The notes: generated by a model not told the origin, from the sequence alone. A stretch of DNA of 64,000 nt from a virus (IMGVR_UViG_3300037455_000245:41229-105228), one strand, 5' to 3'. Shown: positions 1,917 through 62,400, numbered from the stretch's first letter. Program-made: numbers and translations.

Positions 1917-2477
1917 ATGGCTAAGAATCCGAAGATTACAGAAGAAGAAATAGCCCTTATCAAAAGCGCTCAAGCAGGAGAAATCTCTGCTTATAATAAA
2001 CTTTATGAGAAGTACAAAAACTTCACCACAAACCTTTTGTTTAGATACATTAAGGATTTTGATGAATCCAAAGAGATTAATAATATCGTTTGGCTTAAAG
2101 TTTATAAGAAACTCTCGAAATTCAAAGACTATACTTCATTTGGAGGATGGTTGAGAATACTTACAAATCGAACTGCAATAGATTATCTACGCAAGTTAAA
2201 TGATTTGAACTATGTCTCTGACACTAATGCTCGCTTTGTATCCGAGGATGACAGAGAAGATGTTTATAATGATAGCATCTCTGATGATATTACTTACAAA
2301 CAGTTAGTTGAAACATTTAAGCAATTCCCAGAAGACGCTCGTAAAGTCTTTGAATTGTATTACGGAGAAGGTCTTACTGTCAGTGAGATTCATAAGGTTA
2401 CGAACATTCCGGAAGGTACGATTAAATCGCATCTCTCACGAAAACGTAACTTGTTAAAAAACAAATTCAAACTGTAA
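1917..2477 (+). CDS. ECF-type (sigma-70 group 4) RNA polymerase sigma factor
   Basis: Region 2 pattern (AYNKLYEKY...VWLKVYKKLSKF...FGGWLRILTNRTAIDYLRK) and region 4 HTH (FPEDARKVFELYYGEGLTVSEI...IPEGTIKSHLSR). Likely start is MAKNP at 1917. Confidence 0.92.
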   Translation: MAKNPKITEEEIALIKSAQAGEISAYNKLYEKYKNFTTNLLFRYIKDFDESKEINNIVWLKVYKKLSKFKDYTSFGGWLRILTNRTAIDYLRKLNDLNYVSDTNARFVSEDDREDVYNDSISDDITYKQLVETFKQFPEDARKVFELYYGEGLTVSEIHKVTNIPEGTIKSHLSRKRNLLKNKFKL

Positions 2478-2481
2478 AATT

Positions 2482-2892
2482 ATGATGACTTTAATCGCTT
2501 TCTTGGCTATTACAGCAGTAATCACAGCTATAGCTCGCTATAACGAAAGTGATTCTCTGTTCTGGAAGCTCTTTATCTCCCTTGTTGGAGCTTATGGAGC
2601 AGCCACTATCGTCACCCACGTGATTGATAGTAAAGAGAAGGATAAAGTCGTGATGATTGATGACAATCCCACACAGGTGCACAAGAGCGTAAGCTACGCT
2701 CCGTTTGTGATGCGTAGCACGTCTCTTAGTGCTACCCGTCGGGTGAAAACCCAAAAGCCTGTGAGTAAGGATACTGTCATTAAGAATAGCGATTCTATCC
2801 TGAGTAAGGTCTTCGTGTCTGCACGAGGCCAACCACAGATAAGCTCTGTACGACATATACTACATGAGCTTGTATACTTCGACACGTCATGA
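2482..2892 (+). CDS. Small membrane protein (two N-terminal hydrophobic helices); possible sigma partner
   Basis: Hydrophobic segments LIAFLAITAVITAIA and LFISLVGAYGAATIVTHVI; starts 4 nt after the sigma stop. Confidence 0.7.
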   Translation: MMTLIAFLAITAVITAIARYNESDSLFWKLFISLVGAYGAATIVTHVIDSKEKDKVVMIDDNPTQVHKSVSYAPFVMRSTSLSATRRVKTQKPVSKDTVIKNSDSILSKVFVSARGQPQISSVRHILHELVYFDTS

Positions 2893-2967
2893 CTGACATA
2901 TTTCACTAAGAAATCACATTCGAAGTACATTTAACTAGAGTATTAACAAAAAATTTTCATTATCAAA

Positions 2968-4362
2968 ATGGGAAAGAATAATAACAAGAAAACTCCTGCT
3001 GTTGAGGCTCCTGTAGTGGAGGCCAAGCAGGTAGAAGAAGTGGGTGGAAAGTCCGCTACCGCCACCATCGTCGATATGGCCGCAGGTAAGGGCTTAACCC
3101 AAAGCGAGAAGCTGCAGTTTGCCACAGAGCTGCGCCATCGCGTGTCCGAGTTAAGAGAAGAGGACAATCCTCCTCTCGAGATGATTAAGGGCTACAACAT
3201 GATCCGCGATATCACATTCATTGACCTGGCAGCAGGTGAGATTGCATGTGGTACCAGCGCGACTGGTTTCATATTCTCCGGAAACGAAGTTGCATACAAG
3301 GCTCTTTGTGGTCTTGCGTTGACAATGGGCGTTAAGATGCCGGACTTCAAGACTCTGCCAGCTCCTACAAAGGAACAGCTGCACAACGCTGGTCTGGAGG
3401 GTATCGGTGAGACAAAATATGTCGCCATCGAGAGCAAGGACGTGTCTAAGGAGACCAAAGAGAGAAAGAAGAAGGAGCGTAAGCTCAACGACGAAGCAGA
3501 GAAGGCTGACAAAGCCTATCTGACCGACCATACCAAGATTGAGACTCCTGAACAGCTCGGTGAGGCGCTTGGGTTTCAGTTGGTTAACCTTAAGGTTGCT
3601 AGTCCAGTTGAGCGTCTTATCACAGCAGCTCAGTTCTACCGTTCCTATCTTGAGGCTCGCGCCGAAAAGTCGGACAATCCGGAAGCTGAACTTGCTAAGA
3701 TCCACGAGAATTCTCTCGCTGATCTGCTTCAGGACATTAGCACTATGGTGCCCCCCACCTTCGCCATTGAAGGCTTCGGCAAGCACTTATGCAAGCTTGC
3801 GGAATCTAACGGAAGTATTATTCCTGCGTTCAACCTGTTCCGCAAGGCTTCCATCAATAAGACGACGGGAAAGTGCAAGTTCTCTGATGAGGAATGTGCA
3901 GTCCTGGTTCGCGTCATTATTGTATGGAATGCAAGCGCTCAGATCGCAAGTATCAGTAAGGATATCAAGCTTCTGAACAAGGACGCTAAGGCTAACGCCA
4001 AGGCTATTGAGCAGTGTACTGCTAAGATTCAGCATCAGCAGGACATCATCTCTCTCGCATCAGAGCCCGATTTCGATATCGCTGACAACTTCATTGCTGC
4101 ATACAAGGACAACGAACATGCTAAGCACAATCTCGCTGTAGCACTGTATAACAGCATCATATCTACGTACTATCCTGACGCTGATATCCCTGAGTTGGAA
4201 GTCGATACTGCATTGTTGAACGTTCAGCAGCGCATCGGCATCATCATAAACCTGTTCAACTCTGAGCTTGGTAAACGTGATGATTATTCTGAAGAAAACC
4301 TGATTGCATTCTCCACCGAGGACGAAAAGCCCAAAGAAGGTGAAGGATCAAAAAACTCATAG
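2968..4362 (+). CDS. Uncharacterised 464-aa protein, probably highly expressed; TAG stop
   Basis: Long ORF with strong AAG/GAG/CAG/TTC codon bias like the capsid gene; helical, Ala/Lys/Glu rich. Confidence 0.88.
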   Translation: MGKNNNKKTPAVEAPVVEAKQVEEVGGKSATATIVDMAAGKGLTQSEKLQFATELRHRVSELREEDNPPLEMIKGYNMIRDITFIDLAAGEIACGTSATGFIFSGNEVAYKALCGLALTMGVKMPDFKTLPAPTKEQLHNAGLEGIGETKYVAIESKDVSKETKERKKKERKLNDEAEKADKAYLTDHTKIETPEQLGEALGFQLVNLKVASPVERLITAAQFYRSYLEARAEKSDNPEAELAKIHENSLADLLQDISTMVPPTFAIEGFGKHLCKLAESNGSIIPAFNLFRKASINKTTGKCKFSDEECAVLVRVIIVWNASAQIASISKDIKLLNKDAKANAKAIEQCTAKIQHQQDIISLASEPDFDIADNFIAAYKDNEHAKHNLAVALYNSIISTYYPDADIPELEVDTALLNVQQRIGIIINLFNSELGKRDDYSEENLIAFSTEDEKPKEGEGSKNS

Positions 4363-4434
4363 TGGTCATTAAGGGAAAGGGCAAAGCCTTGATGACCAAA
4401 GTGAAGAATTACATTTTTGCTTAAACTGTGAGCT

Positions 4435-4926
4435 ATGAAACGGTTAACTACAGTAATATGTTGTATCTGTCTTATGGTAGCGGGAATCGGTCTTGCTATA
4501 TATGACTCAGATACGCATCTCAATGAGCTATATGCTGGCGAACCGGCTCCATTAGTATGGAATATCCCCAATGGGGGTGTGATACCACTCGATCTCCGAT
4601 TGGATTCGGAAAAGAGACAACCTGATATCCAGATGCGAGACTCTATCAACATCATCGATTCTATTCGATGGGTTGATAAGTATCGTTATCGTATAAAGTA
4701 TAAAACTGTGTCTGATCGCACAACAGCACGGGAAGCAGGTGAGCATCCGGACGGTGTCAATCCAGACACCTTAGCTGGACGTACTGCAACAATTTGTGCG
4801 CTGGAACGTGAGGAGCAACCCAGCGATACTGTTGGCACTCCTAAAGTGCCATCTATACAGCTTTCTGTCGGCGGAAAAGTTGTATATTCGAATGACGATA
4901 ATCACTCCACGGGGGAGAGTCAGTGA
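4435..4926 (+). CDS. Hypothetical exported or membrane-anchored protein
   Basis: N-terminus MKRLTTVICCICLMVAGIGLAIY is signal/TM-like; 163 aa. Confidence 0.75.
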   Translation: MKRLTTVICCICLMVAGIGLAIYDSDTHLNELYAGEPAPLVWNIPNGGVIPLDLRLDSEKRQPDIQMRDSINIIDSIRWVDKYRYRIKYKTVSDRTTAREAGEHPDGVNPDTLAGRTATICALEREEQPSDTVGTPKVPSIQLSVGGKVVYSNDDNHSTGESQ

Positions 4927-4984
4927 GGATTCACTGGCTCTCCGGCCATTGGGCATCCCGCTTAGTCCACGTCAACGGTCTCAT

Positions 4985-6860
4985 TAGCCGGGACGAAAGA
5001 GTACAACTTGATCCGAGAATATGTCGAGCCCCAAAGGCAAACTCAAAAGGTAGGATGAAATGCTGTATAGTCATACGTACTCTATGACAGAAAAGTATAC
5101 AGTAAGAGGTGTGAGAGGTGTATCAACACCTTGCTGCCTCCCGAGAACCGATTGGTGGGGAGGATTGCCAGCTAAACTCTCGTAAGTCGCAAGAAGCGCA
5201 AAATGAACCGTATCGACAGATCTACTATAATGATACATAGTAGTAGAATAACGTTACACGAGTTGAACATACAGTAAAGATGCCAAACCCTGTATGATGT
5301 ATCAATTCACTATTGCTGTAGTCCAGTGTTCCACGCAATCCAGGGCGTGTATGAAGGGATGAAGAATTATCTGAGTATATGAACCTAGCGGAAGGTTTGA
5401 CTGTCCGCGCCGTACCGTAACTACGGTCCTTGAAGAAATCCTTCCTGTGTCGAGACAGGATGACCACCTTTGAGGCCAAGGTCCCAATGGGTCACCGGGG
5501 ATGGGGTGCTGAGGAAAATATGATGAAGATGACCGCCAGGCTTTGGTCGTTCAAGCGGTATAAGACACGTGGAATTGATTCGTGCTAAAAGTAAATGACC
5601 ACCAGTTCGATGCAGGAACTGATTGATTAGTAGCGCCTAGAGGCGTGATTGCTGCCCGAGTGAAGGCCGGGATGAAAGCCTATTCAAACGGCACATAGTT
5701 CTAGTAAGCAAGAACTCACTGTGTAGATGGGAGATGTACCAGAGGAAATGCTGGAGTCGAAGGATGACAACCTGACAGTCAAAACCAAGTTTTTTACAAT
5801 ATCGGTCGATTCGAGGTCTATACATACCAGTGTAGAAGGAGATCGCCAACGTCTGTATAGGATAATATAGTAGAACACTGATATACTATATCAGCGAGAG
5901 TAGTAAACTCGTGTGCGGTATATCTTTAGTTACAAGCAAAACTATATGAAAGTAGCCAGATGAAGTTAACATGTTGAACAAAATTAAGTGTCCCTCTATG
6001 AAATCTATTACGTTATGTATAATCGGGATAGAGTCCGCTACCTCCTGTTGTATGGGAGAACATAGCCATTTTAGACGTATGATAGAGAAGCTTGAGTGCC
6101 AACCGTTTCTGAGAAGCAAGTAGCAGGATAGATAATAGTTTGGGGTTAGACTGCAAATCTAACTAATCGGCTTAGTCTATGAAGCAATATACGCAAACGA
6201 TGCAAGGCAGCCTATCGCAAAATGAAATCACCTCACTGTCTATGAGGGGTAAAGGAAATGAGTAATTAGTCCGTCGAAAGATGGTTCGCTGATGAAAAGG
6301 ACTCGATGAAGTGGCGCATTAGGTGGGTGATAAATCTTATAGCGTATGAGGTGGAATTCCTCCAGTATTCGCGCACTATAAACAGAAGCCAGCAGCAAAG
6401 CTGAATGTACAGTAAAAAGCCGTAGGTCCATCATGGGTTCTGGAGCCCTAGGCCATGTCCGATAAAGAAACACGTTCCTCTTGACGTGAGATGCCACATG
6501 CTGATAAACAACGAAGCCAGATCCAACTGGAAAGCAAATGGACGAGAACGTTAATGTTGCTGTTAGTCTCGTAAAATATTCAGAAGCATAGCAGACAATC
6601 TTCGACACTTATTTGGAACGTACAGCGAGAAGATACACTGCACCTTATTGGTTTACGTTATTTGCATCTATGAGCACTAGGCCGTGACCATCGTAAGATG
6701 TAGCTACTCTGCCAACGAGCGCAAATAATATTTTACAAAAACTAAATATTGTGTTTTATATTTGGTGCTTGATTGCACAACTGGCAATTAGCGCTTTTGA
6801 TCCTTATATAGAGATGGGCTTGTATATCCTACCGTTGGATTCCCGTCGTACGAGTTGAGC
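4985..6860 (+). ncRNA. Candidate very large structured non-coding RNA (~1.9 kb; ends approximate)
   Basis: No + strand ORF of 60 aa or more lies within 4988-7054. Nested long-range helices: 5004-5010/6851-6857, 5049-5056/6826-6833, 5163-5171/6781-6789, 5246-5254/6655-6663, 5370-5378/6576-6584, 5396-5405/5774-5783. Many local hairpins, several with G-U pairs and GNRA loops. Confidence 0.75.
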
Positions 6861-7054
6861 TTCACTTTGAGGAATATAGAAGTATGACAACTATGTAAGT
6901 AAACGCGCTTCCCATGAGCATAGCACAACCAGAATAAGAAACAAATTAGAAACACAACATACTTTTTATAGGCAACGTCCCGCCTTAGAAGTGGACAAGT
7001 TCATTACCTGATATCGTTGGTTAATCAATAACGATGTCAAAAAGGATATAAGGT

Positions 7055-7672
7055 ATGGCATATAACGAAATGGATATTGCCCTGGAGTCAGTACGACCCC
7101 AGGTTATCAACATTAGCCGCACGCTCCCAACTGGAGCAAAGTTTTACAAAGTAGAAGCAACTGACATTGATCAGGGCTTCGAAGAGCGCAAGAATCAGCT
7201 GATGGCTGATCCTAACACTCCTGAGTTTATTTTCAATCGTTCACCGCGCGTCATCGTGTTGAAGGACTTCAGCGTGAAGAGCCAGGACTTTGAGGTCGAC
7301 ATTGACGGCAACAAAGTGGTGGTCTTCAATAAGGGTACGAATGAGCAAGCCCAAGCAACGATCGTTGCTGGTGGTGTGAACTTTGGTCAGACCACCGATG
7401 AGGCCATGAAGGATGCACTTCGTGGGCAAGATCGTATCTTTGCCGACGGCATTAAGACCGCCACAAAGGTGAACGCTCTGAACGCAGCTGAGCTCTCCCG
7501 TGTGGAGGCCATGATCAAGTACTGGACTGGAAAGGCTGATGCCATCCGTTCAGCAATTGCTTCCAACAGCAAGAAGGTCAAGGACTACCAGGACGTTCTC
7601 GCTAAGTTCCGCAAGGATATCGATTTGTCTGCCGGAGACGGCGACGGCTTCGCAGTACAGGTTGAAGGATAA
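7055..7672 (+). CDS. Hypothetical protein with C-terminal coiled coil
   Basis: 205-aa ORF with highly biased codon usage; first gene after the long non-coding region. Confidence 0.85.
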   Translation: MAYNEMDIALESVRPQVINISRTLPTGAKFYKVEATDIDQGFEERKNQLMADPNTPEFIFNRSPRVIVLKDFSVKSQDFEVDIDGNKVVVFNKGTNEQAQATIVAGGVNFGQTTDEAMKDALRGQDRIFADGIKTATKVNALNAAELSRVEAMIKYWTGKADAIRSAIASNSKKVKDYQDVLAKFRKDIDLSAGDGDGFAVQVEG

Positions 7673-7674
7673 GT

Positions 7675-8277
7675 ATGGCGAACTCGGTTGATGATGCAAA
7701 GCTGCAGGCTCCCGAGTTAATATCGCTCTTACTGAAGGAACCAAAAATCCTTCAGAAGATTGTATTGGCTATGAAGCCTAAAGCGCGGGGTTACACCAAA
7801 TGGAAGGTTGTACCTGAAGAAGAACGAATTTATCTGGGAAAATATTCCTGGCATGGATTTGGAGAATTCTGGAACAATCTTATCAAATGCTGTGATCACA
7901 TCTCTTTCGACGATTTCTACATTAAAGTGTGGGATGCGTTGGTTGAGATGACTGCTGGTACTGAAGCACACGAAGCCGTGCTTGAAGGACTTTCTCGTGA
8001 AGTTCTCATGCAAGGCATCCACGCAAAGGACCAGAATATACTTCATCGATTCTTCGATGTATGTCGACATTTAACATCCGATGGATATTGGAGGGACAAG
8101 GGACTGAAGCGGGATAATCCGCCTCACCACCATTTTAAAGGCTGTCCGTATTCTGGTGATGTAGAAATAGAGGTAGAACCTCATGGCCGACCGCGACCTG
8201 GAGTATTTCGGGTGGTAGACTCGGTTGGAGATGCATTTGAGATTATTAATGTGAAATGGTTAGGTGGACGTCATTAA
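7675..8277 (+). CDS. Hypothetical protein
   Basis: 200-aa ORF starting 2 nt after the previous stop. Confidence 0.8.
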   Translation: MANSVDDAKLQAPELISLLLKEPKILQKIVLAMKPKARGYTKWKVVPEEERIYLGKYSWHGFGEFWNNLIKCCDHISFDDFYIKVWDALVEMTAGTEAHEAVLEGLSREVLMQGIHAKDQNILHRFFDVCRHLTSDGYWRDKGLKRDNPPHHHFKGCPYSGDVEIEVEPHGRPRPGVFRVVDSVGDAFEIINVKWLGGRH

Positions 8278-8288
8278 ACGGGTACGTC

Positions 8289-8496
8289 GGGCCTCTGCGG
8301 GGGTCTGTAGTTATTGGTCTGAGGGCTGGTGCTACAATTGGTATCTGTGTTAATGATAACACTTAAACAAGTCGCACAAACGTTTTAAGTGCGCTCAAAA
8401 TAGACACAACAGCTATACTTTGATTAGGAACTCTGCGGGGGGCCATATAGTCAAAGTATAGCTGTCAGGTTTCTAATGAAGTGATTTATTAGAAAC
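8289..8496 (+). other. Structured intergenic region with long hairpins and a repeated C-TGCG-G loop
   Basis: 18-bp stem 8409-8426/8448-8465; stem 8469-8496; CTCTGCGGGGG occurs at 8293 and 8431. Confidence 0.6.
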
Positions 8497-8560
8497 TGCA
8501 AGGTAAATGATGCTCGAATTCAATTTTAATTAACATGTCTAACTAAATCAAGAATTGCTT

Positions 8561-9106
8561 ATGACGAAATCAATTAAATTGAATGCATCGAATATTCTTA
8601 ACATTAAGAAGAAGATTGATAACGATATTACAAAGTATAGCCACATTATCCGTGAGGAGAATTTGATATCTAAGAAGGCTATTGAGGCTGGTAAGGGTTC
8701 AGGCTTTGATCTTAAAGCTCTGTATAATACTATCCAGCAGCTTCGTACTAAGCGTATTATGCTTAAGGGTATGATTCAGTATCTTAATATGGGTACTACT
8801 ACGTTTAATTACGAGGATTTTAAGAAGACAAACTATTATGCTATTTTCTCTGCTTGTGAGGCTAAGGAGGATATCACTTTGTTAAAGATGATTAAGACTC
8901 TGGACCCCAAGACTAAGGCTCAGAAGGGTAAGAAGACTCTTGCTATGAAGGAGACTTTCTCTAAAGAGAAGATTGCACAGCTGATACACGATCAGCAGCT
9001 TGAGGCCAACAAGTTTGACGCTATTCTGGCTAAGTTCAATACTGATACTAGCATCGAGATTGATGAGAGCAACAGTGATGACTTTAAGGAGTATATTACA
9101 GCGTAA
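8561..9106 (+). CDS. Hypothetical helical protein
   Basis: ORF 8555..9106; the ATG at 8561 follows an AT-rich leader. Confidence 0.82.
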   Translation: MTKSIKLNASNILNIKKKIDNDITKYSHIIREENLISKKAIEAGKGSGFDLKALYNTIQQLRTKRIMLKGMIQYLNMGTTTFNYEDFKKTNYYAIFSACEAKEDITLLKMIKTLDPKTKAQKGKKTLAMKETFSKEKIAQLIHDQQLEANKFDAILAKFNTDTSIEIDESNSDDFKEYITA

Positions 9107-9221: not shown

Positions 9222-10142
9222 ATGTCACGAAAGAATTTTAAGGTAGACACTGCCGCAAACGGTCAGACTGCCAAACAAGATACAAAACACGCATTCAGCG
9301 AAATAAAGCGCGAACTTGGCGTAGTTGAGAAGACTAACGTTCCTACTGGAAAAGTCAAGAATACGGAAGATCGCCGTAAGGCACGTGAAGAATCATACAA
9401 ACAGTTCCGCGTGAACGCTCTCAAACGACGAGCGCAACGCATGGGCTTAACGGAAGAGCAGACGAAAGTAAAAATAGATCAGCTGCTCAAACAGATGGAT
9501 GAGCCCGCTACGTATAATATGATCGTAACGTATCATGTCAGCGACAAGGATATGCTTATCCAAGCTCTAAAGAAGGAGGATATAGTATGGAAGATTATGG
9601 TAAATCCTACTCGACGCTGTCAGGATGCATATTGCATCATAGAGGCAGACAAGGATGTACTCGATTATCTCCGTGGATTGAATATCCCGACGCTGAAGAT
9701 CTATCCGTATGTCAAGAAGAAGCCAGCTATAATAGAGGCTCTGTCAAGGAAGAAGAGTGATTACGTTGCTAAGAACAATGATAAGTCTAAGACTCCGAAG
9801 GGTATCCGCAATGCACGAAAGGCTATGATAGTAGCCGCTATGATCGAGCATCTTAAGGAACTCAAAGCTAATGGCGTCATCAAGCAGACAACCGCAAACA
9901 TGCTCAAGCGCACTTATGTAGCAATGCATAATGACCACAAACTTGCTGCCAAGTTGCAGAAAGAGGTGCGTACAAAGCATGAGCGTAAGTTGAAAAAGCA
10001 GGAAATGCTGCTCAAGAAGAAGCTCGAGAAACGCCGTCAGGAGGCCAAGAAGCGTAAGGCCGGTACAATTGTACCTATGAATGCTAAAAAGGCCTCAGAG
10101 AGCCCCAAAACAGCCTCTAAGACGCTCAAACAGGCCGCATAA
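9222..10142 (+). CDS. Very basic Lys/Arg-rich hypothetical protein (possible nucleic-acid binder)
   Basis: 306 aa with K/R-rich termini; ends ...KQAA. Confidence 0.82.
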   Translation: MSRKNFKVDTAANGQTAKQDTKHAFSEIKRELGVVEKTNVPTGKVKNTEDRRKAREESYKQFRVNALKRRAQRMGLTEEQTKVKIDQLLKQMDEPATYNMIVTYHVSDKDMLIQALKKEDIVWKIMVNPTRRCQDAYCIIEADKDVLDYLRGLNIPTLKIYPYVKKKPAIIEALSRKKSDYVAKNNDKSKTPKGIRNARKAMIVAAMIEHLKELKANGVIKQTTANMLKRTYVAMHNDHKLAAKLQKEVRTKHERKLKKQEMLLKKKLEKRRQEAKKRKAGTIVPMNAKKASESPKTASKTLKQAA

Positions 10143-10171: not shown

Positions 10172-10960
10172 ATGGGACATAGCAGCATTCGTCCTAAGGT
10201 GCGTCGAAGAAAAGTAGCTGCCCTTGCAGCCTATAGCCGTAAGTTTACCGTTAGGAATAATACAATACACAAGCTAGGATTGAACTCTAAGAATGTTGTA
10301 GTAATGTTCAAGGAGATACCGACTGCTAGGTTTGATACTCCTATATTCGGTAAGATGTTTGAGATAGATAAAGACGGTCATTATCATCTGATTGAGCGTG
10401 AGTTTGATCCGACACCGATGCTGTTGAATCATAAGCAGCCGAAGCGACTTATGAAGTATAACAGAATTGATAAAGACGGTAATCAACGTAATGACTTTGT
10501 CAAGTTCTTCCCCAATTATCCATACAATCTTCCTAAGATGAACAAACAGGAGTATATGGAGAAGCTTGTACAGCATAAGTTGGCCAAGTGGGAGAAGAAA
10601 AATCCTAAGCCACAACAGGATCTGTTTGACAAAGTAGAAGACTGGGAACAGCGACGATTCCTAGCAGAACAACGATTCAGAGACTTCGTCGTCTCTGTCT
10701 ACGACCCTCTGACCCTCATAGGACGATTCGTCCTAGGCGCGGGTAACTCAGCTACCTATCAGGAAAAGAAGATAGCTGAGATAAAAGATATCAACGGAGA
10801 AGGACACATGGTCAACCATTTGTCAAAAAATTCAAAGTTGATGAAAAAGGCTCAGAAGATTACAAATCACACAAAGAATAAATATCCAAGTTTGGTAGCA
10901 TGTAATCTGAAAGACCACAAGAAGCAGCATGGCAGGATAATCTTGCCACAGGCTGCGTAA
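10172..10960 (+). CDS. Basic hypothetical protein
   Basis: 262 aa; ends ...PQAA. Confidence 0.8.
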   Translation: MGHSSIRPKVRRRKVAALAAYSRKFTVRNNTIHKLGLNSKNVVVMFKEIPTARFDTPIFGKMFEIDKDGHYHLIEREFDPTPMLLNHKQPKRLMKYNRIDKDGNQRNDFVKFFPNYPYNLPKMNKQEYMEKLVQHKLAKWEKKNPKPQQDLFDKVEDWEQRRFLAEQRFRDFVVSVYDPLTLIGRFVLGAGNSATYQEKKIAEIKDINGEGHMVNHLSKNSKLMKKAQKITNHTKNKYPSLVACNLKDHKKQHGRIILPQAA

Positions 10961-15915: not shown

Positions 15916-16509
15916 ATGTATAGTACAAAAACAGCAACAACAAGCAATACGGAGTTTACAAGCTCCTATATGCCAGTAGGCATCAATGAAAACATCACTC
16001 TGAAAGAAGTAAACGTCAACAAATCGCCTCAAGGTCTTGACTTTCTGGAGATAATTTTCCAGAACAGTGAGGGTCAAACAGCAACTATGACTGAATGGAA
16101 GAACGAGAAGAATATGTGGATTAAGACCGATGAAGATTTACAGCGTCGAGATAATCAGCAGTTCGGACGTATTCTGCAGGTTATAGATGCAATTAAAGGT
16201 GGTCATAATGATTTCGAAGGTAATTCGTTTATCGAGATGATTACTTGGGCTAAGACGTGTCTTAATGACGGTGATAACGATCCTGTGCGTCTTAAAGTAA
16301 TTTATGACAAAAAGGGTTATACTACCGTATCTAAGAATGGTGTATTTATCGAGTCTATGGGTGTTGCAGAGTCGCAGATTAAGCTTTGGAAGAACGATCT
16401 TCTGGAGCGTCCCGTACAGGCTGACGTTGAGAAGCCTATCGACCCGCTCGCTGGTAACAGTGCTCCGGTGACTGCAGACTCTACAGGTGCTGACGACCTA
16501 CCTTTCTAA
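15916..16509 (+). CDS. Putative single-stranded DNA-binding protein
   Basis: C-terminal acidic DDLPF tail; located between the AAA ATPase and primase genes. Confidence 0.75.
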   Translation: MYSTKTATTSNTEFTSSYMPVGINENITLKEVNVNKSPQGLDFLEIIFQNSEGQTATMTEWKNEKNMWIKTDEDLQRRDNQQFGRILQVIDAIKGGHNDFEGNSFIEMITWAKTCLNDGDNDPVRLKVIYDKKGYTTVSKNGVFIESMGVAESQIKLWKNDLLERPVQADVEKPIDPLAGNSAPVTADSTGADDLPF

Positions 16510-60876: not shown

Positions 60877-62400
60877 TTACGCACCGACTGAAAGCAGACC
60901 GTCGTTAGACAGCTCGGTATCCTCAGCGTCGCAGTACAGAATACCGCAAGACAGCGGGTTACGAACCATGATACCAACCTCACCAAGGAAGTGAACCTGG
61001 TAACCGTCACGGCTGTTAGAACGCAGCGTATTGATGCTGTTTGCATATCCGTTAGGAGCAACAGAACCACCGGTATACCACTGAACGAACTCACGACCCT
61101 TACGACAAACCTTAACAACGTTAGCCTGACCGTCGCTGTTGCTGATATCAACAAACAGGAACGTATAAGACATCAGCGGTTTGCCGGTCAGCGGGTGAAG
61201 CTGACGGAAGAGCTCCATGTTGTCAAACATAGGACAACGCTTCAGAGAAAGCTCAATGCCGTTAGTCATCTTGTAGGTGGTGAACTGTCCACCGAGAGTC
61301 AGGTTCTGACCGCTACCAGTAACAAACACGTTGTCACAGAGGTGGAAGCTAGCAACCTTCTCCTTCAGGATACGATCGAACTCGCGAATACCCATCTCAC
61401 CAGTCAGAGCAACGAACTTACGCTCGTTAGTGCCGAGGATGTTGTAGCACAGATCGAACAGATAATCCTCAAACAACTCAGCTGTAAGAGTTGTATAGTA
61501 ACGGACATTTGCCGGAGAGATCTGCTCGAACAGACCAGACATCGTGGGAACAGGGCGTCCATTAGTACCCTTGTTGATATAAGTACCATCGCTCAGACGG
61601 TTGCTCTTAGAGAACAACAGAGCGGTCTCCTCTCTCTTCTTCCACTCGCGAAGAGCCTTCCAGTACTGATAATCAGACCACAGATAAGACTTCTTACCAG
61701 TCTCGGGATCCTGCAGAGCGATAGCAAGAACGGTGCTATAAGCGTCACCGGTGATATCGTAGCTCAGACGAAGATTCTGGAGGTGGTTACGCATCTTAAA
61801 CGGAGTCTGATAGTTGATGATATCAGCCTCATCGCTGTACTCCTCGTAAGCAGAACCGATACGGCTAACCTGACGACCAGCCAGCAGGAACTCACCAGGA
61901 ATGTAAGCAGCCTGTGAACCATCAATTACATAGCACTCATAAACCCAAGCGCTGCCATCCTGATAAGGAAGACCAGTTACGCGAACCTGGAACTTATAAT
62001 CATCGAAAGAAAGGATTGCACCAGGACCGAACCAACGCTCCTCAAGGGCAAGGTAAATAGGTGTGTTATTCAGACCCGGAGTAATAGTGGTGTAGTTAGA
62101 AGTAGAAATCTCCTGACCATTCCACTTAGCCCAACGGATGTTAACAGCGTGATCGCTATCAATCTGTACAGACCACTCGAACTCACGGTTCTCAATAATC
62201 ATAGTTTTGCCAAGACCACCAGTAATCAAGTCGATGGTCGTAGATACGCCGTCATCTTTAGTACCAAATACCAATGAAAGCAGACCAGATACCTCGTGCG
62301 GCTTGGTCAGCAGGGCGTTAGAAATCATGTTCTCATCTACCAGGTCCGAGAAACGACGTCCACGATACAGCTGGAGATTGTTAAGTAAACTATTATTCAT
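60877..62400 (-). CDS. Major capsid protein (crAss-like, HK97 fold)
   Basis: Intact 507-aa ORF with strong codon bias. Recognised crAss-like MCP features: IENREFEW, MRNHLQNLRLSYDITG, GLFEQI, FVALTGEMGIREF, HPLTGKPLMSY, DGYQVHFL. Confidence 0.92.
   Translation of the reverse strand: MNNSLLNNLQLYRGRRFSDLVDENMISNALLTKPHEVSGLLSLVFGTKDDGVSTTIDLITGGLGKTMIIENREFEWSVQIDSDHAVNIRWAKWNGQEISTSNYTTITPGLNNTPIYLALEERWFGPGAILSFDDYKFQVRVTGLPYQDGSAWVYECYVIDGSQAAYIPGEFLLAGRQVSRIGSAYEEYSDEADIINYQTPFKMRNHLQNLRLSYDITGDAYSTVLAIALQDPETGKKSYLWSDYQYWKALREWKKREETALLFSKSNRLSDGTYINKGTNGRPVPTMSGLFEQISPANVRYYTTLTAELFEDYLFDLCYNILGTNERKFVALTGEMGIREFDRILKEKVASFHLCDNVFVTGSGQNLTLGGQFTTYKMTNGIELSLKRCPMFDNMELFRQLHPLTGKPLMSYTFLFVDISNSDGQANVVKVCRKGREFVQWYTGGSVAPNGYANSINTLRSNSRDGYQVHFLGEVGIMVRNPLSCGILYCDAEDTELSNDGLLSVGA

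What the first reader, a model, noticed from the sequence alone, without database searches (positions are those of the whole stretch)
1917..8277. Possible RNA-protein system: ECF sigma, two membrane proteins, an abundant 464-aa protein, the giant RNA and two downstream proteins
Seen: a co-oriented run of sigma (1917), 2-TM protein (2482), 464-aa protein (2968), signal/TM protein (4435), the 2-kb structured region, and 205-aa and 200-aa proteins. I see no obvious U-tailed terminator between 4926 and the RNA. The 464-aa and 205-aa genes have capsid-like codon bias, suggesting high expression, although they lie outside the virion module. Inference: the RNA and flanking proteins may form a membrane-associated ribonucleoprotein, by loose analogy with OLE RNA and its membrane partner OapA, possibly under control of the phage sigma.
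Basis: inference. Interest (0 to 1): 0.8.

Follow-up and report, generated by a model that had tools for sequence, protein, structure and literature searches.

The report
Giant phage RNA in conserved gene block
This gut crAss-like phage, like every subfamily of its family that I examined, carries a roughly 2.1-kb folded non-coding RNA inside a fixed block of genes, but nothing yet shows that the neighbouring proteins bind the RNA or take it to the membrane.

Summary
There is an ECF-type sigma gene and a protein with two transmembrane helices. There is a 464-aa protein, a signal-anchored 163-aa protein and a 2.1-kb ORF-free stretch. Then come 205-aa and 200-aa genes, all on the + strand, with no terminator-like site before 8288. 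The 464-aa and 205-aa genes do share the capsid gene's codon bias.

The ORF-free stretch is a genuine structured RNA on the + strand. Its consensus fold scores -311 against -138 ± 7 for shuffled alignments. Compensatory changes occur at 142 of 281 pairs. G·U outnumbers A·C 428 to 120. It matches no Rfam family.

A covariance model of its 5' domain finds the same place in all five Suoliviridae subfamilies. The gene order around it is the same everywhere.

The "RNA-protein system" reading remains unproven. The whole genome arm is collinear, so synteny cannot separate partners from neighbours. The two abundant proteins are acidic (pI about 5) and have no known fold. Nothing links the RNA to OLE or OapA.

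This scan had already found and confirmed the RNA on several other genomes. I found no paper that describes it.

The parts
1917..2477 (+). ECF-type (group 4) sigma-70 family factor, 186 aa from the ATG at 1917
   Evidence: Pfam Sigma70_r2 and Sigma70_r4_2 are above cut-off, and phrog_1740 scores E 7e-22. Homologs align from residue 1 of this start. The gene sits at the same position in all Suoliviridae loci examined.
2482..2892 (+). 136-aa protein with two N-terminal transmembrane helices. It is a candidate anti-sigma factor (inference).
   Evidence: Hydropathy shows two TM segments and a conserved ARYNE..LFW loop in 9 of 9 positional orthologs across subfamilies; one of them scores a single segment at my threshold. 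There is no Pfam, PHROG or NCBIfam match.
2968..4362 (+). 464-aa all-alpha protein with capsid-like codon usage, acidic, found only in Suoliviridae
   Evidence: More than 210 metagenomic homologs, none with a Pfam domain. AF2 model pLDDT 75, pTM 0.72, residues 1-47 disordered. No PDB fold match. BFVD matches are only the same-position proteins of cr272, cr56 and cr114. RSCU r 0.68 with the capsid gene. pI 5.2.
4435..4926 (+). 163-aa protein with an N-terminal signal anchor or signal peptide
   Evidence: One N-terminal hydrophobic segment in the window and in most positional orthologs. No family match.
4960..7052 (+). Giant structured non-coding RNA locus, about 2.1 kb (ends approximate, not mapped)
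   Evidence: ORF-free under four genetic codes. No Rfam match. Length 2.08-2.33 kb in 17 sequence clusters. RNAalifold -311.5 against -137.8 ± 7.0 for column shuffles. 142 of 281 pairs covary, against 25-48 in shuffles. G·U 428 against A·C 120 fixes the + strand.
4966..4996 (+). 5' hairpin with covarying stem and conserved loop UCUCAUUAG
   Evidence: Stem variants CGG/CCG, GGG/CCC, UAGA/UCUA and AAGG/CCUU appear in the alignment. Helices at 4966-4968/4993-4995 and 4975-4981/4986-4991.
5007..5262 (+). Domain 1, the most conserved part. Motifs: GAGAAUAUG, CAAAAGGUAGGAUGAAAUG, UGAGAACCG, ACACGAG.
   Evidence: the count of structure pairs gives 85.6% paired against 32-44% when partners are slid. 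18 pairs show a double change against 9.4 ± 1.7 in shuffles, 0 of 500. Covariance model R1 finds this domain in all five subfamilies.
5292..5947 (+). Domain 2, closed by a pairing that spans about 650 nt
   Evidence: Closing helices 5292-5296/5943-5947 (78% paired; AU to UA change in 10 sequences) and 5300-5303/5936-5939 (95%) in 61 distinct sequences. Internal hairpins have 4-6 covarying pairs each.
5989..6209 (+). Domain 3
   Evidence: The closing helix is 96% paired and invariant. Helix 5994-5999/6082-6087 shows CG, UA, AU and GC variants.
6210..6461 (+). Domain 4. Motifs: GUGGGUGACAA, UUCGUGCACUAU, GCCGUAG, CGAUAA.
   Evidence: Alignment A6 has 61% mean column identity. Model R2 hits Dulem virus 42 strongly and Loutivirinae weakly at the expected offset, and finds nothing in the other subfamilies.
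6470..6760 (+). Variable, partly AT-rich linker. It could hold an internal 3' end or a promoter.
   Evidence: This is the lowest-conservation stretch. No conserved Bacteroidota-type promoter was found.
6765..6925 (+). Domain 5, a conserved 3' structured domain. Hairpin loop UUGAUU; motif GAUGGGC..UACCGUUGGAUUCC.
   Evidence: Helices have 2-5 covarying pairs each. The closing helix is 92% paired.
7008..7052 (+). Near-invariant hairpin or inverted repeat that ends 2 nt before the start codon of the 205-aa gene
   Evidence: 92-95% identical across genera whose flanking proteins share about 30% identity. An 18-nt pattern from it retrieved 80 IMG/VR loci, of which 78 carry the RNA.
7055..7672 (+). 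205-aa protein: a beta domain plus a long C-terminal helix, capsid-like codon usage, acidic
   Evidence: 115 homologs, none with a Pfam domain. AF2 model pLDDT 77 with helix 132-184. No fold match. RSCU r 0.56. pI 5.1.
7675..8277 (+). 200-aa His/Cys-rich protein (11 His, 4 Cys), function unknown
   Evidence: No family or PDB match. It is syntenic in all loci. In cr53_1 a single 399-aa gene takes the place of the 205-aa and 200-aa genes.
8288..8307 (+). First + strand terminator-like hairpin after the block
   Evidence: Consensus scan; the T tract is weak.

Best explanation
Window 4960-7052 encodes a very large, multi-domain structured non-coding RNA on the + strand. It is a family-wide feature of Suoliviridae (delta crAss-like phages).

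It lies inside a fixed, co-oriented block with no terminator-like site: ECF sigma, 2-TM protein, abundant 464-aa protein, signal-anchored protein, RNA, abundant 205-aa protein, His/Cys-rich 200-aa protein.

My committed reading has three steps.
1. The RNA is made with, or cut out of, the long rightward non-structural transcript.
2. It accumulates as a stable RNA.
3. It acts in trans as a scaffold, either as an RNA-only assembly or as a ribonucleoprotein, in the way GOLLD and ROOL are thought to act.

I read the sigma and its adjacent 2-TM protein as an ordinary sigma/anti-sigma-type regulatory pair.

**Shown:** the structure, the strand, the conservation, the synteny and the codon bias.
**Inferred:** co-transcription, stability, action in trans, and any protein partner.

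My odds:
- functional structured RNA: about 0.95
- one molecule longer than 1.5 kb: about 0.55
- at least one of the six flanking proteins binds it: about 0.25
- membrane-associated: about 0.08
For: **The RNA is structured and on the + strand.**
- Consensus fold z is about -25 against column shuffles, with 142 covarying pairs.
- G·U against A·C asymmetry, 428 to 120, fixes the strand.
- The formal pair count on domain 1 beat all 500 shuffles.

**It is conserved beyond its neighbours.**
- Conserved islands run at 72-95% identity and are collinear, where the neighbouring proteins share 24-31%.
- The 5' domain model hits the start of the gap, on the gene strand, in Oafi-, Louti-, Boori-, Uncou- and Bearivirinae.
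- Collinear islands along the whole gap link the five subfamilies.

**The locus is fixed.**
- The gap is 1.85-2.5 kb and the gene order identical in 18 public phage records from five subfamilies.
- No terminator-like site lies inside the block.

**Two neighbours look highly expressed.** Both the 464-aa and 205-aa genes have capsid-like codon usage.

**There is a precedent.** The crAss-like phage phi14:2 makes abundant long non-coding RNAs from long intergenic regions. They appear early and do not decline (bioRxiv 10.1101/2020.03.07.982082, read).
Against: - No transcript ends or expression data exist for this phage.
- No helix joins the two ends. The longest pairing with any covariation spans about 650 nt, so several adjacent RNAs remain possible.
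- A variable AT-rich stretch (6470-6760) could separate two units.
- The near-invariant hairpin that abuts the 205-aa start codon would also fit a cis-regulatory role.
- The 464-aa and 205-aa proteins are acidic and lack known RNA-binding folds.
- The strongly basic proteins lie further downstream: 9222-10142 (pI 10.1, net +39) and 10172-10960 (pI 10.0).
- Synteny is uninformative because the whole arm is collinear.
Confidence: 0.5

Rival explanations
1. The RNA works without its gene neighbours, either as an RNA-only assembly or with host machinery such as the ribosome, RNA polymerase or defence proteins. On this view the flanking genes are simply the next genes in a collinear genome, and the sigma and 2-TM pair is a separate regulatory module.
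For: - The entire arm from tmRNA to DNA polymerase keeps its order in all subfamilies.
- The abundant neighbours are acidic and have no RNA-binding fold.
- Capsid-like codon bias also occurs in genes further away.
- GOLLD, ROOL and OLE form RNA-only homo-oligomers (abstract of PMC12286853, listed).
Against: - The 464-aa and 205-aa families are as restricted to Suoliviridae as the RNA itself.
- They flank it without exception.
- The 205-aa start codon abuts a near-invariant RNA hairpin.
Confidence: 0.35
2. The locus is a tandem cluster of several smaller structured RNAs, for example 4960-6465 plus 6765-7052, or one RNA per domain, rather than one 2.1-kb molecule.
For: - The domains close on themselves and no end-to-end helix was found.
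- The stretch 6470-6760 is poorly conserved and AT-rich.
- Model R2 of domain 4 is far less widely recognisable than model R1 of domain 1.
- phi14:2 has two separate abundant intergenic RNAs.
Against: - Total length is held to about 1.9-2.5 kb in all subfamilies.
- No terminator-like site lies inside the region.
- No conserved internal promoter was found.
- Domain 2 alone spans about 650 nt.
Confidence: 0.25
3. The structured region is a giant cis-acting leader or processing platform. It would control translation or stability of the 205-aa and 200-aa genes, and perhaps the 3' end of the upstream message.
For: - The hairpin 7008-7052 is 92-95% identical across genera and ends 2 nt before the start codon. 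The predicted outer helix pairs the purine-rich stretch just upstream of the ATG.
- No terminator separates the RNA from the gene.
Against: - Known bacterial leaders are a few hundred nucleotides (general knowledge).
- About 1.5 kb of strongly conserved, covarying domains lies more than 600 nt upstream of the gene.
- That region is conserved better than the protein it would regulate.
Confidence: 0.12
4. One reading: an OLE-like, membrane-anchored ribonucleoprotein built from the RNA and the two membrane proteins, switched on by the phage sigma.
For: - Two membrane or secreted proteins flank the 464-aa gene and are conserved family-wide.
- A sigma factor heads the block.
Against: - There is no Rfam OLE match.
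- The membrane proteins match no named family.
- A small membrane protein right after an ECF sigma is what an anti-sigma factor looks like (established knowledge of ECF systems).
- The 163-aa protein has a signal-anchor topology, so most of it probably faces away from the cytoplasm where the RNA is (inference).
Confidence: 0.08
5. The region works as DNA, for example as a replication origin, a packaging site or an array of protein-binding sites, and not as RNA.
For: - It lies a few kilobases upstream of the DNA polymerase gene.
- It holds a near-invariant inverted repeat at 7011-7049.
Against: - G·U against A·C asymmetry of 428 to 120 is a property of RNA pairing on one strand.
- Compensatory changes keep pairing rather than sequence.
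- Cumulative GC skew turns at about 26-27 kb and 61-62 kb of the genome, where gene orientation switches, and not at the RNA at 46.2-48.3 kb.
Confidence: 0.03

Closest known systems
GOLLD (Rfam RF01998) and ROOL (RF03087), large ornate RNAs of phages and prophages
   Same: It is a very large, multi-domain, strongly covarying non-coding RNA carried by a phage. It lies in a region that also holds tRNA and tmRNA genes, and its function is unknown. This is the closest functional analogy: a stable scaffold RNA.
   Different: There is no covariance-model match to either family, even at E 10. At about 2.1 kb it is roughly 2.5 to 3.5 times their length (GOLLD about 800 nt and ROOL about 580 nt, from my own knowledge). 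The host lineage is crAss-like phages of Bacteroidota. Oligomeric cage formation was not tested.
Abundant long non-coding RNAs of crAss-like Cellulophaga phage phi14:2 (Drobysheva et al., bioRxiv 10.1101/2020.03.07.982082)
   Same: phi14:2 is also a member of Crassvirales. It has a long ORF-free stretch (2905-4601 of NC_021806, 1.7 kb) on the rightward non-structural arm, a few kilobases upstream of the DNA polymerase. That stretch is transcribed above most genes, from the earliest time point, without later decline.
   Different: No homology was detectable. Model R1 with filters off and the nhmmer profile found nothing in that stretch, and the conserved motifs are absent. phi14:2 belongs to another family, Steigviridae. 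Its flanking genes are not homologous to the ones here. I did not examine the structure of the phi14:2 RNAs.
OLE RNA with OapA, OapB and OapC (Rfam RF01071)
   Same: OLE is a large structured RNA with a membrane-protein partner and is highly expressed.
   Different: There is no model match. OLE is about 600 nt and cellular, in anaerobic Firmicutes. The membrane proteins here match no named family, and I did not compare them with OapA directly.
ECF sigma / anti-sigma pairs
   Same: The sigma has regions 2 and 4 only. It is followed within 5 nt by a small membrane protein, as in ECF operons.
   Different: No recognised anti-sigma domain was found. The membrane protein has two N-terminal helices instead of the usual cytoplasmic domain plus a single helix. 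The pair is phage-encoded.

Membership tests
Structured non-coding RNA (general) | A conserved secondary structure supported by compensatory base changes beyond chance | tested here: met
   Consensus fold -311.5 against -137.8 ± 7.0 for shuffles. 142 covarying pairs against 25-48. In domain 1, 0 of 500 shuffles reached the observed counts, and 85.6% of cells are paired against 32-44% when partners are slid.
Structured non-coding RNA (general) | No conserved protein-coding frame | tested here: met
   There is no long ORF under four codes. The longest frames in 17 relatives lie on the pyrimidine-rich minus strand, differ in place and length, and are absent in several.
OLE RNA (RF01071) | Match to the family covariance model | tested here: not met
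   There is no hit at the gathering score in the window, and none up to E 10 in 4700-7300.
OLE RNA (RF01071) | Adjacent OapA-type membrane partner | tested here: inconclusive
   The two membrane proteins match nothing in Pfam, PHROGs or NCBIfam. I did not compare them with an OapA sequence directly.
GOLLD (RF01998) / ROOL (RF03087) | Match to the family covariance model | tested here: not met
   There is no hit.
GOLLD (RF01998) / ROOL (RF03087) | Carried by phages or prophages, often near tRNA genes | tested here: met
   The record is a complete 105-kb virus genome. tRNA-Met lies at 700-774. Relatives carry tmRNA and tRNA genes a few kilobases upstream.
GOLLD (RF01998) / ROOL (RF03087) | Homo-oligomeric RNA-only assembly | not testable with these tools
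   This needs cryo-EM or native gels of the transcript.
ECF (group 4) sigma-70 factors | Regions 2 and 4 present, regions 1.1 and 3 absent, about 180-200 aa | tested here: met
   PF04542 and PF08281 are above cut-off, the weaker PF07638 lies just below it, and no region 3 match is listed at E ≤ 0.1 (region 1.1 was not tested). The protein is 186 aa.
ECF (group 4) sigma-70 factors | Cognate anti-sigma factor encoded next to it | tested here: inconclusive
   A conserved 2-TM protein follows directly, but it has no anti-sigma domain match.
phi14:2 long non-coding RNAs | Sequence or structure homology to the g004-g006 intergenic RNAs | tested here: not met
   Model R1 with filters off and nhmmer --max gave no hit in 2905-4601 of NC_021806.

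The most novel reading that the evidence does not exclude
The locus makes one roughly 2.1-kb RNA, which to my knowledge would be the largest structured non-ribosomal RNA known from a bacterial virus or its hosts. With the Suoliviridae-only abundant proteins beside it, this RNA builds a phage-specific ribonucleoprotein body that is needed for infection and is timed by the phage's own sigma / anti-sigma switch.
Probability: 0.12. Interest if true: 0.92.

Novelty: new variant of a known kind. Interest (0 to 1): 0.72.

Why it matters
Suoliviridae are among the most common phages of human and animal guts, and none has been grown in culture (my own knowledge). A conserved, intricately folded RNA takes up 2% of each genome. 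It is kept better than the proteins around it, so it must do something central to infection. To my knowledge it is several times larger than any catalogued phage RNA.

This report adds three things about its genetic setting.
- The surrounding gene block is fixed in all five subfamilies.
- Two of the neighbours look highly expressed, but they are acidic and of unknown fold.
- The sigma and membrane-protein pair is more simply read as a regulator.

This narrows which proteins to test first as partners. The RNA's near-invariant motifs also give ready markers for finding these phages in metagenomes.

Tried and rejected
**Hidden gene in the gap.** I tried stop-codon recoding (TAG=Q, TGA=W, TAA=Q), and no long + strand frame opened. 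Minus-strand frames, including those annotated in cr7_1 and Bohxovirus, are not conserved. A purine-rich + strand explains them.

**Known RNA families.** Nothing was found at the gathering score or up to E 10. ARAGORN finds only tRNA-Met.

**Promoters and origin.** A Bacteroidota-type promoter pattern gave 0 matches in the window. GC skew turns elsewhere, so it gives no support for an origin here.

**Protein function.**
- Pfam, PHROGs and NCBIfam recognised only the sigma among the six proteins of the block.
- Foldseek against PDB gave a best E of 0.03 for the 464-aa protein and 0.18 for the 205-aa protein.
- VIA-align wide gave Z 6.8 and Z 4.7, which are generic helical matches.
- Profile searches against PDB sequences found nothing.
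- The ESM Atlas found only unnamed viral clusters.

**Searches that failed.**
A DNA pattern worked instead.
- The automatic RNAalifold run on the default MAFFT alignment of domain 1 found only 10 pairs because of misaligned inserts. I derived the structure from the well-aligned rows and counted it on all rows.
I could not fetch the many 45-90% identical relatives seen.

**Cellular homologs.** A motif scan of 185,579 prokaryote genomes gave 11 hits. Six are crAss-like contigs binned into MAGs. The other five are chance matches: four have no model or profile hit and one has only a weak one of 19.5 bits, E 0.04.

**Homology with phi14:2 long non-coding RNAs.** None was found.

Full report
**What the window is.** The window is bases 41229-105228 of a complete 105,228-bp virus record. 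Its relatives in public phage records are crAss-like phages of the family Suoliviridae, and the nearest belong to the subfamily Oafivirinae. Non-structural genes run rightward to about 20 kb of the window. The virion and giant RNA polymerase genes run leftward and carry many in-frame TAG codons.

**The observation.**
- 1917-2477 is a sigma-70 family protein with regions 2 and 4 only (Pfam and PHROG).
- 2482-2892 encodes a protein with two N-terminal hydrophobic helices. A conserved ARYNE..LFW loop joins them in positional orthologs from every subfamily.
- 2968-4362 and 4435-4926 follow. The second has an N-terminal signal anchor.
- 4927-7054 has no long ORF under the standard code or with TAG, TGA or TAA read through.
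- 7055-7672 and 7675-8277 close the block.
- The first + strand terminator-like hairpin is at 8288.
- The codon-bias claim holds. The capsid gene is 60877-62400(-). RSCU correlation with it is 0.68 for the 464-aa gene and 0.56 for the 205-aa gene, against about 0-0.2 for most genes. Two other genes share the bias: 8555-9106 and 15916-16509.

**The gap is a structured RNA on the + strand.** An 18-nt pattern from the 3' end of the gap retrieved 80 IMG/VR loci, and 78 of them are homologous to the gap.
- The 64 full-length copies fall into 17 clusters, each 2.08-2.33 kb long.
- On one representative per cluster the consensus fold scores -311.5 kcal/mol. Ten column-shuffled alignments gave -137.8 ± 7.0.
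- Compensatory changes on both sides occur at 142 of 281 predicted pairs, against 25-48 in the shuffles.
- In the predicted pairs, G·U occurs 428 times and A·C 120 times. The mirror structure on the other strand gives the reverse, so the RNA is read in the direction of the genes.
- The pair-count tool was run on domain 1 with 20 sequences that include two subfamilies. It gave 85.6% paired cells against 32-44% when partners were slid. It found 18 pairs with double changes against 9.4 ± 1.7, and none of 500 shuffles reached that.
- No Rfam family matches.
- The blastn-detectable islands in the RNA reach 72-95% identity between genera whose flanking proteins share only 24-31%.

**Anatomy of the RNA.** Conservation and helices suggest eight parts:
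- a 5' hairpin (4966-4996)
- four self-closing domains (5007-5262, 5292-5947, 5989-6209, 6210-6461)
- a variable, AT-rich stretch (6470-6760)
- a fifth domain (6765-6925)
- a near-invariant hairpin (7008-7052) that ends 2 nt before the next start codon

The longest pairing with any covariation spans about 650 nt. Nothing joins the two ends, so a single 2.1-kb molecule is likely but not shown.

**Distribution.** A covariance model of 5003-5156 (R1) finds one site at the start of the gap, on the gene strand, in every Suoliviridae subfamily.

| Subfamily or record | R1 score (bits) |
|---|---|
| Loutivirinae | 115, 105 |
| Dulem virus 42 | 82 |
| Boorivirinae | 68, 63, 27.5 |
| Uncouvirinae | 30, 23, 19 |
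| Bearivirinae | 21 |

The weakest scores are not significant on their own. Each of these is nevertheless the best hit in its locus, and each lies in the same place.
- Collinear blastn and nhmmer islands along the whole gap link the five subfamilies to one another.
- A model of domain 4 (R2) reaches only Dulem virus 42 and, weakly, Loutivirinae.
- In 185,579 prokaryote genomes a two-part motif found the RNA only on crAss-like contigs that had been binned into MAGs.
- I found no paper that describes this RNA.
- Earlier notes of this scan describe the same RNA on several other genomes, and follow-up agents confirmed it there.

**Is it an RNA-protein system?** In all 18 public records examined the order is the same: sigma, 2-TM protein, a protein of about 460-570 aa, a small signal-anchored protein, a gap of 1.85-2.5 kb, then two proteins of about 160-215 aa, which are replaced by a single 399-aa gene in cr53_1. 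The same order holds in the IMG/VR representatives wherever the locus reaches far enough. BFVD structure matches show that the proteins of about 460-510 aa in three subfamilies are one family.

The test has little power, however. The whole arm from tmRNA to DNA polymerase is collinear in these phages, and I saw no lineage that has lost either the RNA or a flanking gene.

The proteins give no positive sign.
- The 464-aa protein is all-alpha (pLDDT 75, pTM 0.72) with a disordered N-terminus.
- The 205-aa protein is a small beta domain plus a 50-residue helix.
- Neither has a PDB fold match or a family match.
- Both are acidic across their families, with median pI of 5.3 and 5.4. That is not what one expects of proteins that coat a 2-kb RNA.
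- The strongly basic proteins in the neighbourhood are 9222-10142 (net +39) and 10172-10960 (net +25), which lie outside the proposed block.
- The OLE analogy rests on no sequence evidence.
- The sigma plus an adjacent small membrane protein is most simply a sigma/anti-sigma-type pair (inference from the usual organisation of ECF operons).

**Most likely mechanism.** I commit to the following. The RNA is made as part of, or cut from, the rightward non-structural transcript. It accumulates as a stable folded RNA and acts in trans as a scaffold. The best precedents are GOLLD and ROOL, and within Crassvirales the abundant long non-coding RNAs of phage phi14:2. Those appear early and persist. They come from a 1.7-kb ORF-free stretch in a comparable position, but they show no homology to this RNA.

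**Rivals.**
- The RNA works independently of its neighbours (0.35).
- The locus is a cluster of smaller RNAs (0.25; this can be true together with other readings).
- It is a giant cis-acting leader for the 205-aa gene (0.12).
- It is an OLE-like membrane particle (0.08).
- It is a DNA-level element (0.03). The G·U asymmetry argues against this, and so does a GC skew that turns elsewhere.

**Limits.**
- There are no expression data and the ends are not mapped.
- The structure is a consensus prediction on MAFFT alignments.
- Only domain 1 was checked with the formal pair-count tool.
- Subfamilies other than Oafivirinae and Loutivirinae are linked by weak model hits plus position and pairwise islands.

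Noticed in passing
window 7011-7049: A hairpin or inverted repeat (ATCGTT..AACGAT, then TCAAAAAGGAT) is 92-95% identical across genera whose proteins share about 30%. It ends just before the 205-aa start codon. It could be a translational operator, a processing site or a DNA-binding site.
   Followed up: partly
window 4960-7052: The motif GAT[GA]AA occurs 10 times in the RNA, or 4.8 per kb, against 0.65 per kb on the + strand of the whole genome. Another reader also noted it. I did not check whether its positions are conserved.
   Followed up: partly
window 9222-10142 and 10172-10960: Two very basic proteins (pI 10.1 with net charge +39, and pI 10.0 with net +25) lie 2-3 kb downstream of the RNA. 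They have no family match. They are better candidates for nucleic-acid binding than the acidic RNA neighbours.
   Followed up: no
window 20557-63577, minus strand: The late arm is TAG-recoded. The 5732-aa gene has 65 in-frame TAGs and the 2423-aa gene has 26, while the capsid gene 60877-62400 has none. In cr7_1 the ortholog of the 205-aa gene itself carries an in-frame stop, and I read it and three other relatives (cr124_1, Bohxovirus, Dulem virus 42) with TAG=Q.
   Followed up: partly
L004:8916-9398(-), L005:8747-9253(-), L002:8957-10965, L091:3787-3948, L096:11610-11795: The public records annotate ORFs inside the RNA locus. There is a minus-strand ORF of about 160 aa in cr7_1 and in Bohxovirus, and there are many tiny ORFs in Dulem virus 42, cr125_1 and cr10_1. 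They are not conserved and are probably spurious.
   Followed up: partly
L100, L101, L103, L105, L106, L109: crAss-like phage contigs that carry this RNA sit in GTDB genomes labelled Gastranaerophilaceae, Lachnospiraceae, Sphaerochaeta, Bacteroidaceae and Segatella copri. Most are probably binning artefacts rather than host links.
   Followed up: partly
L110:2905-4601 (Cellulophaga phage phi14:2, NC_021806): A 1.7-kb stretch has had all its former ORF annotations removed. It matches the region reported to give abundant long non-coding RNAs. Its structure has not been analysed, and it has no homology to the Suoliviridae RNA.
   Followed up: partly
window 4897-4937: A 13-bp hairpin (GGAGAGTCAGTGA / TCACTGGCTCTCC, loop GGAT) spans the stop codon of the 163-aa gene just upstream of the RNA. 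It has no T tract and lies in a poorly conserved stretch.
   Followed up: no
L092:2321-3520(-) (cr53_1): A single 399-aa gene occupies the place of the 205-aa and 200-aa genes. It may be a fusion of the two.
   Followed up: no
window 8555-9106 and 15916-16509: Two further non-structural genes have capsid-like codon usage (RSCU r 0.75 and 0.67). 8555-9106 is the best-conserved protein of the neighbourhood, at 55-79% identity.
   Followed up: no
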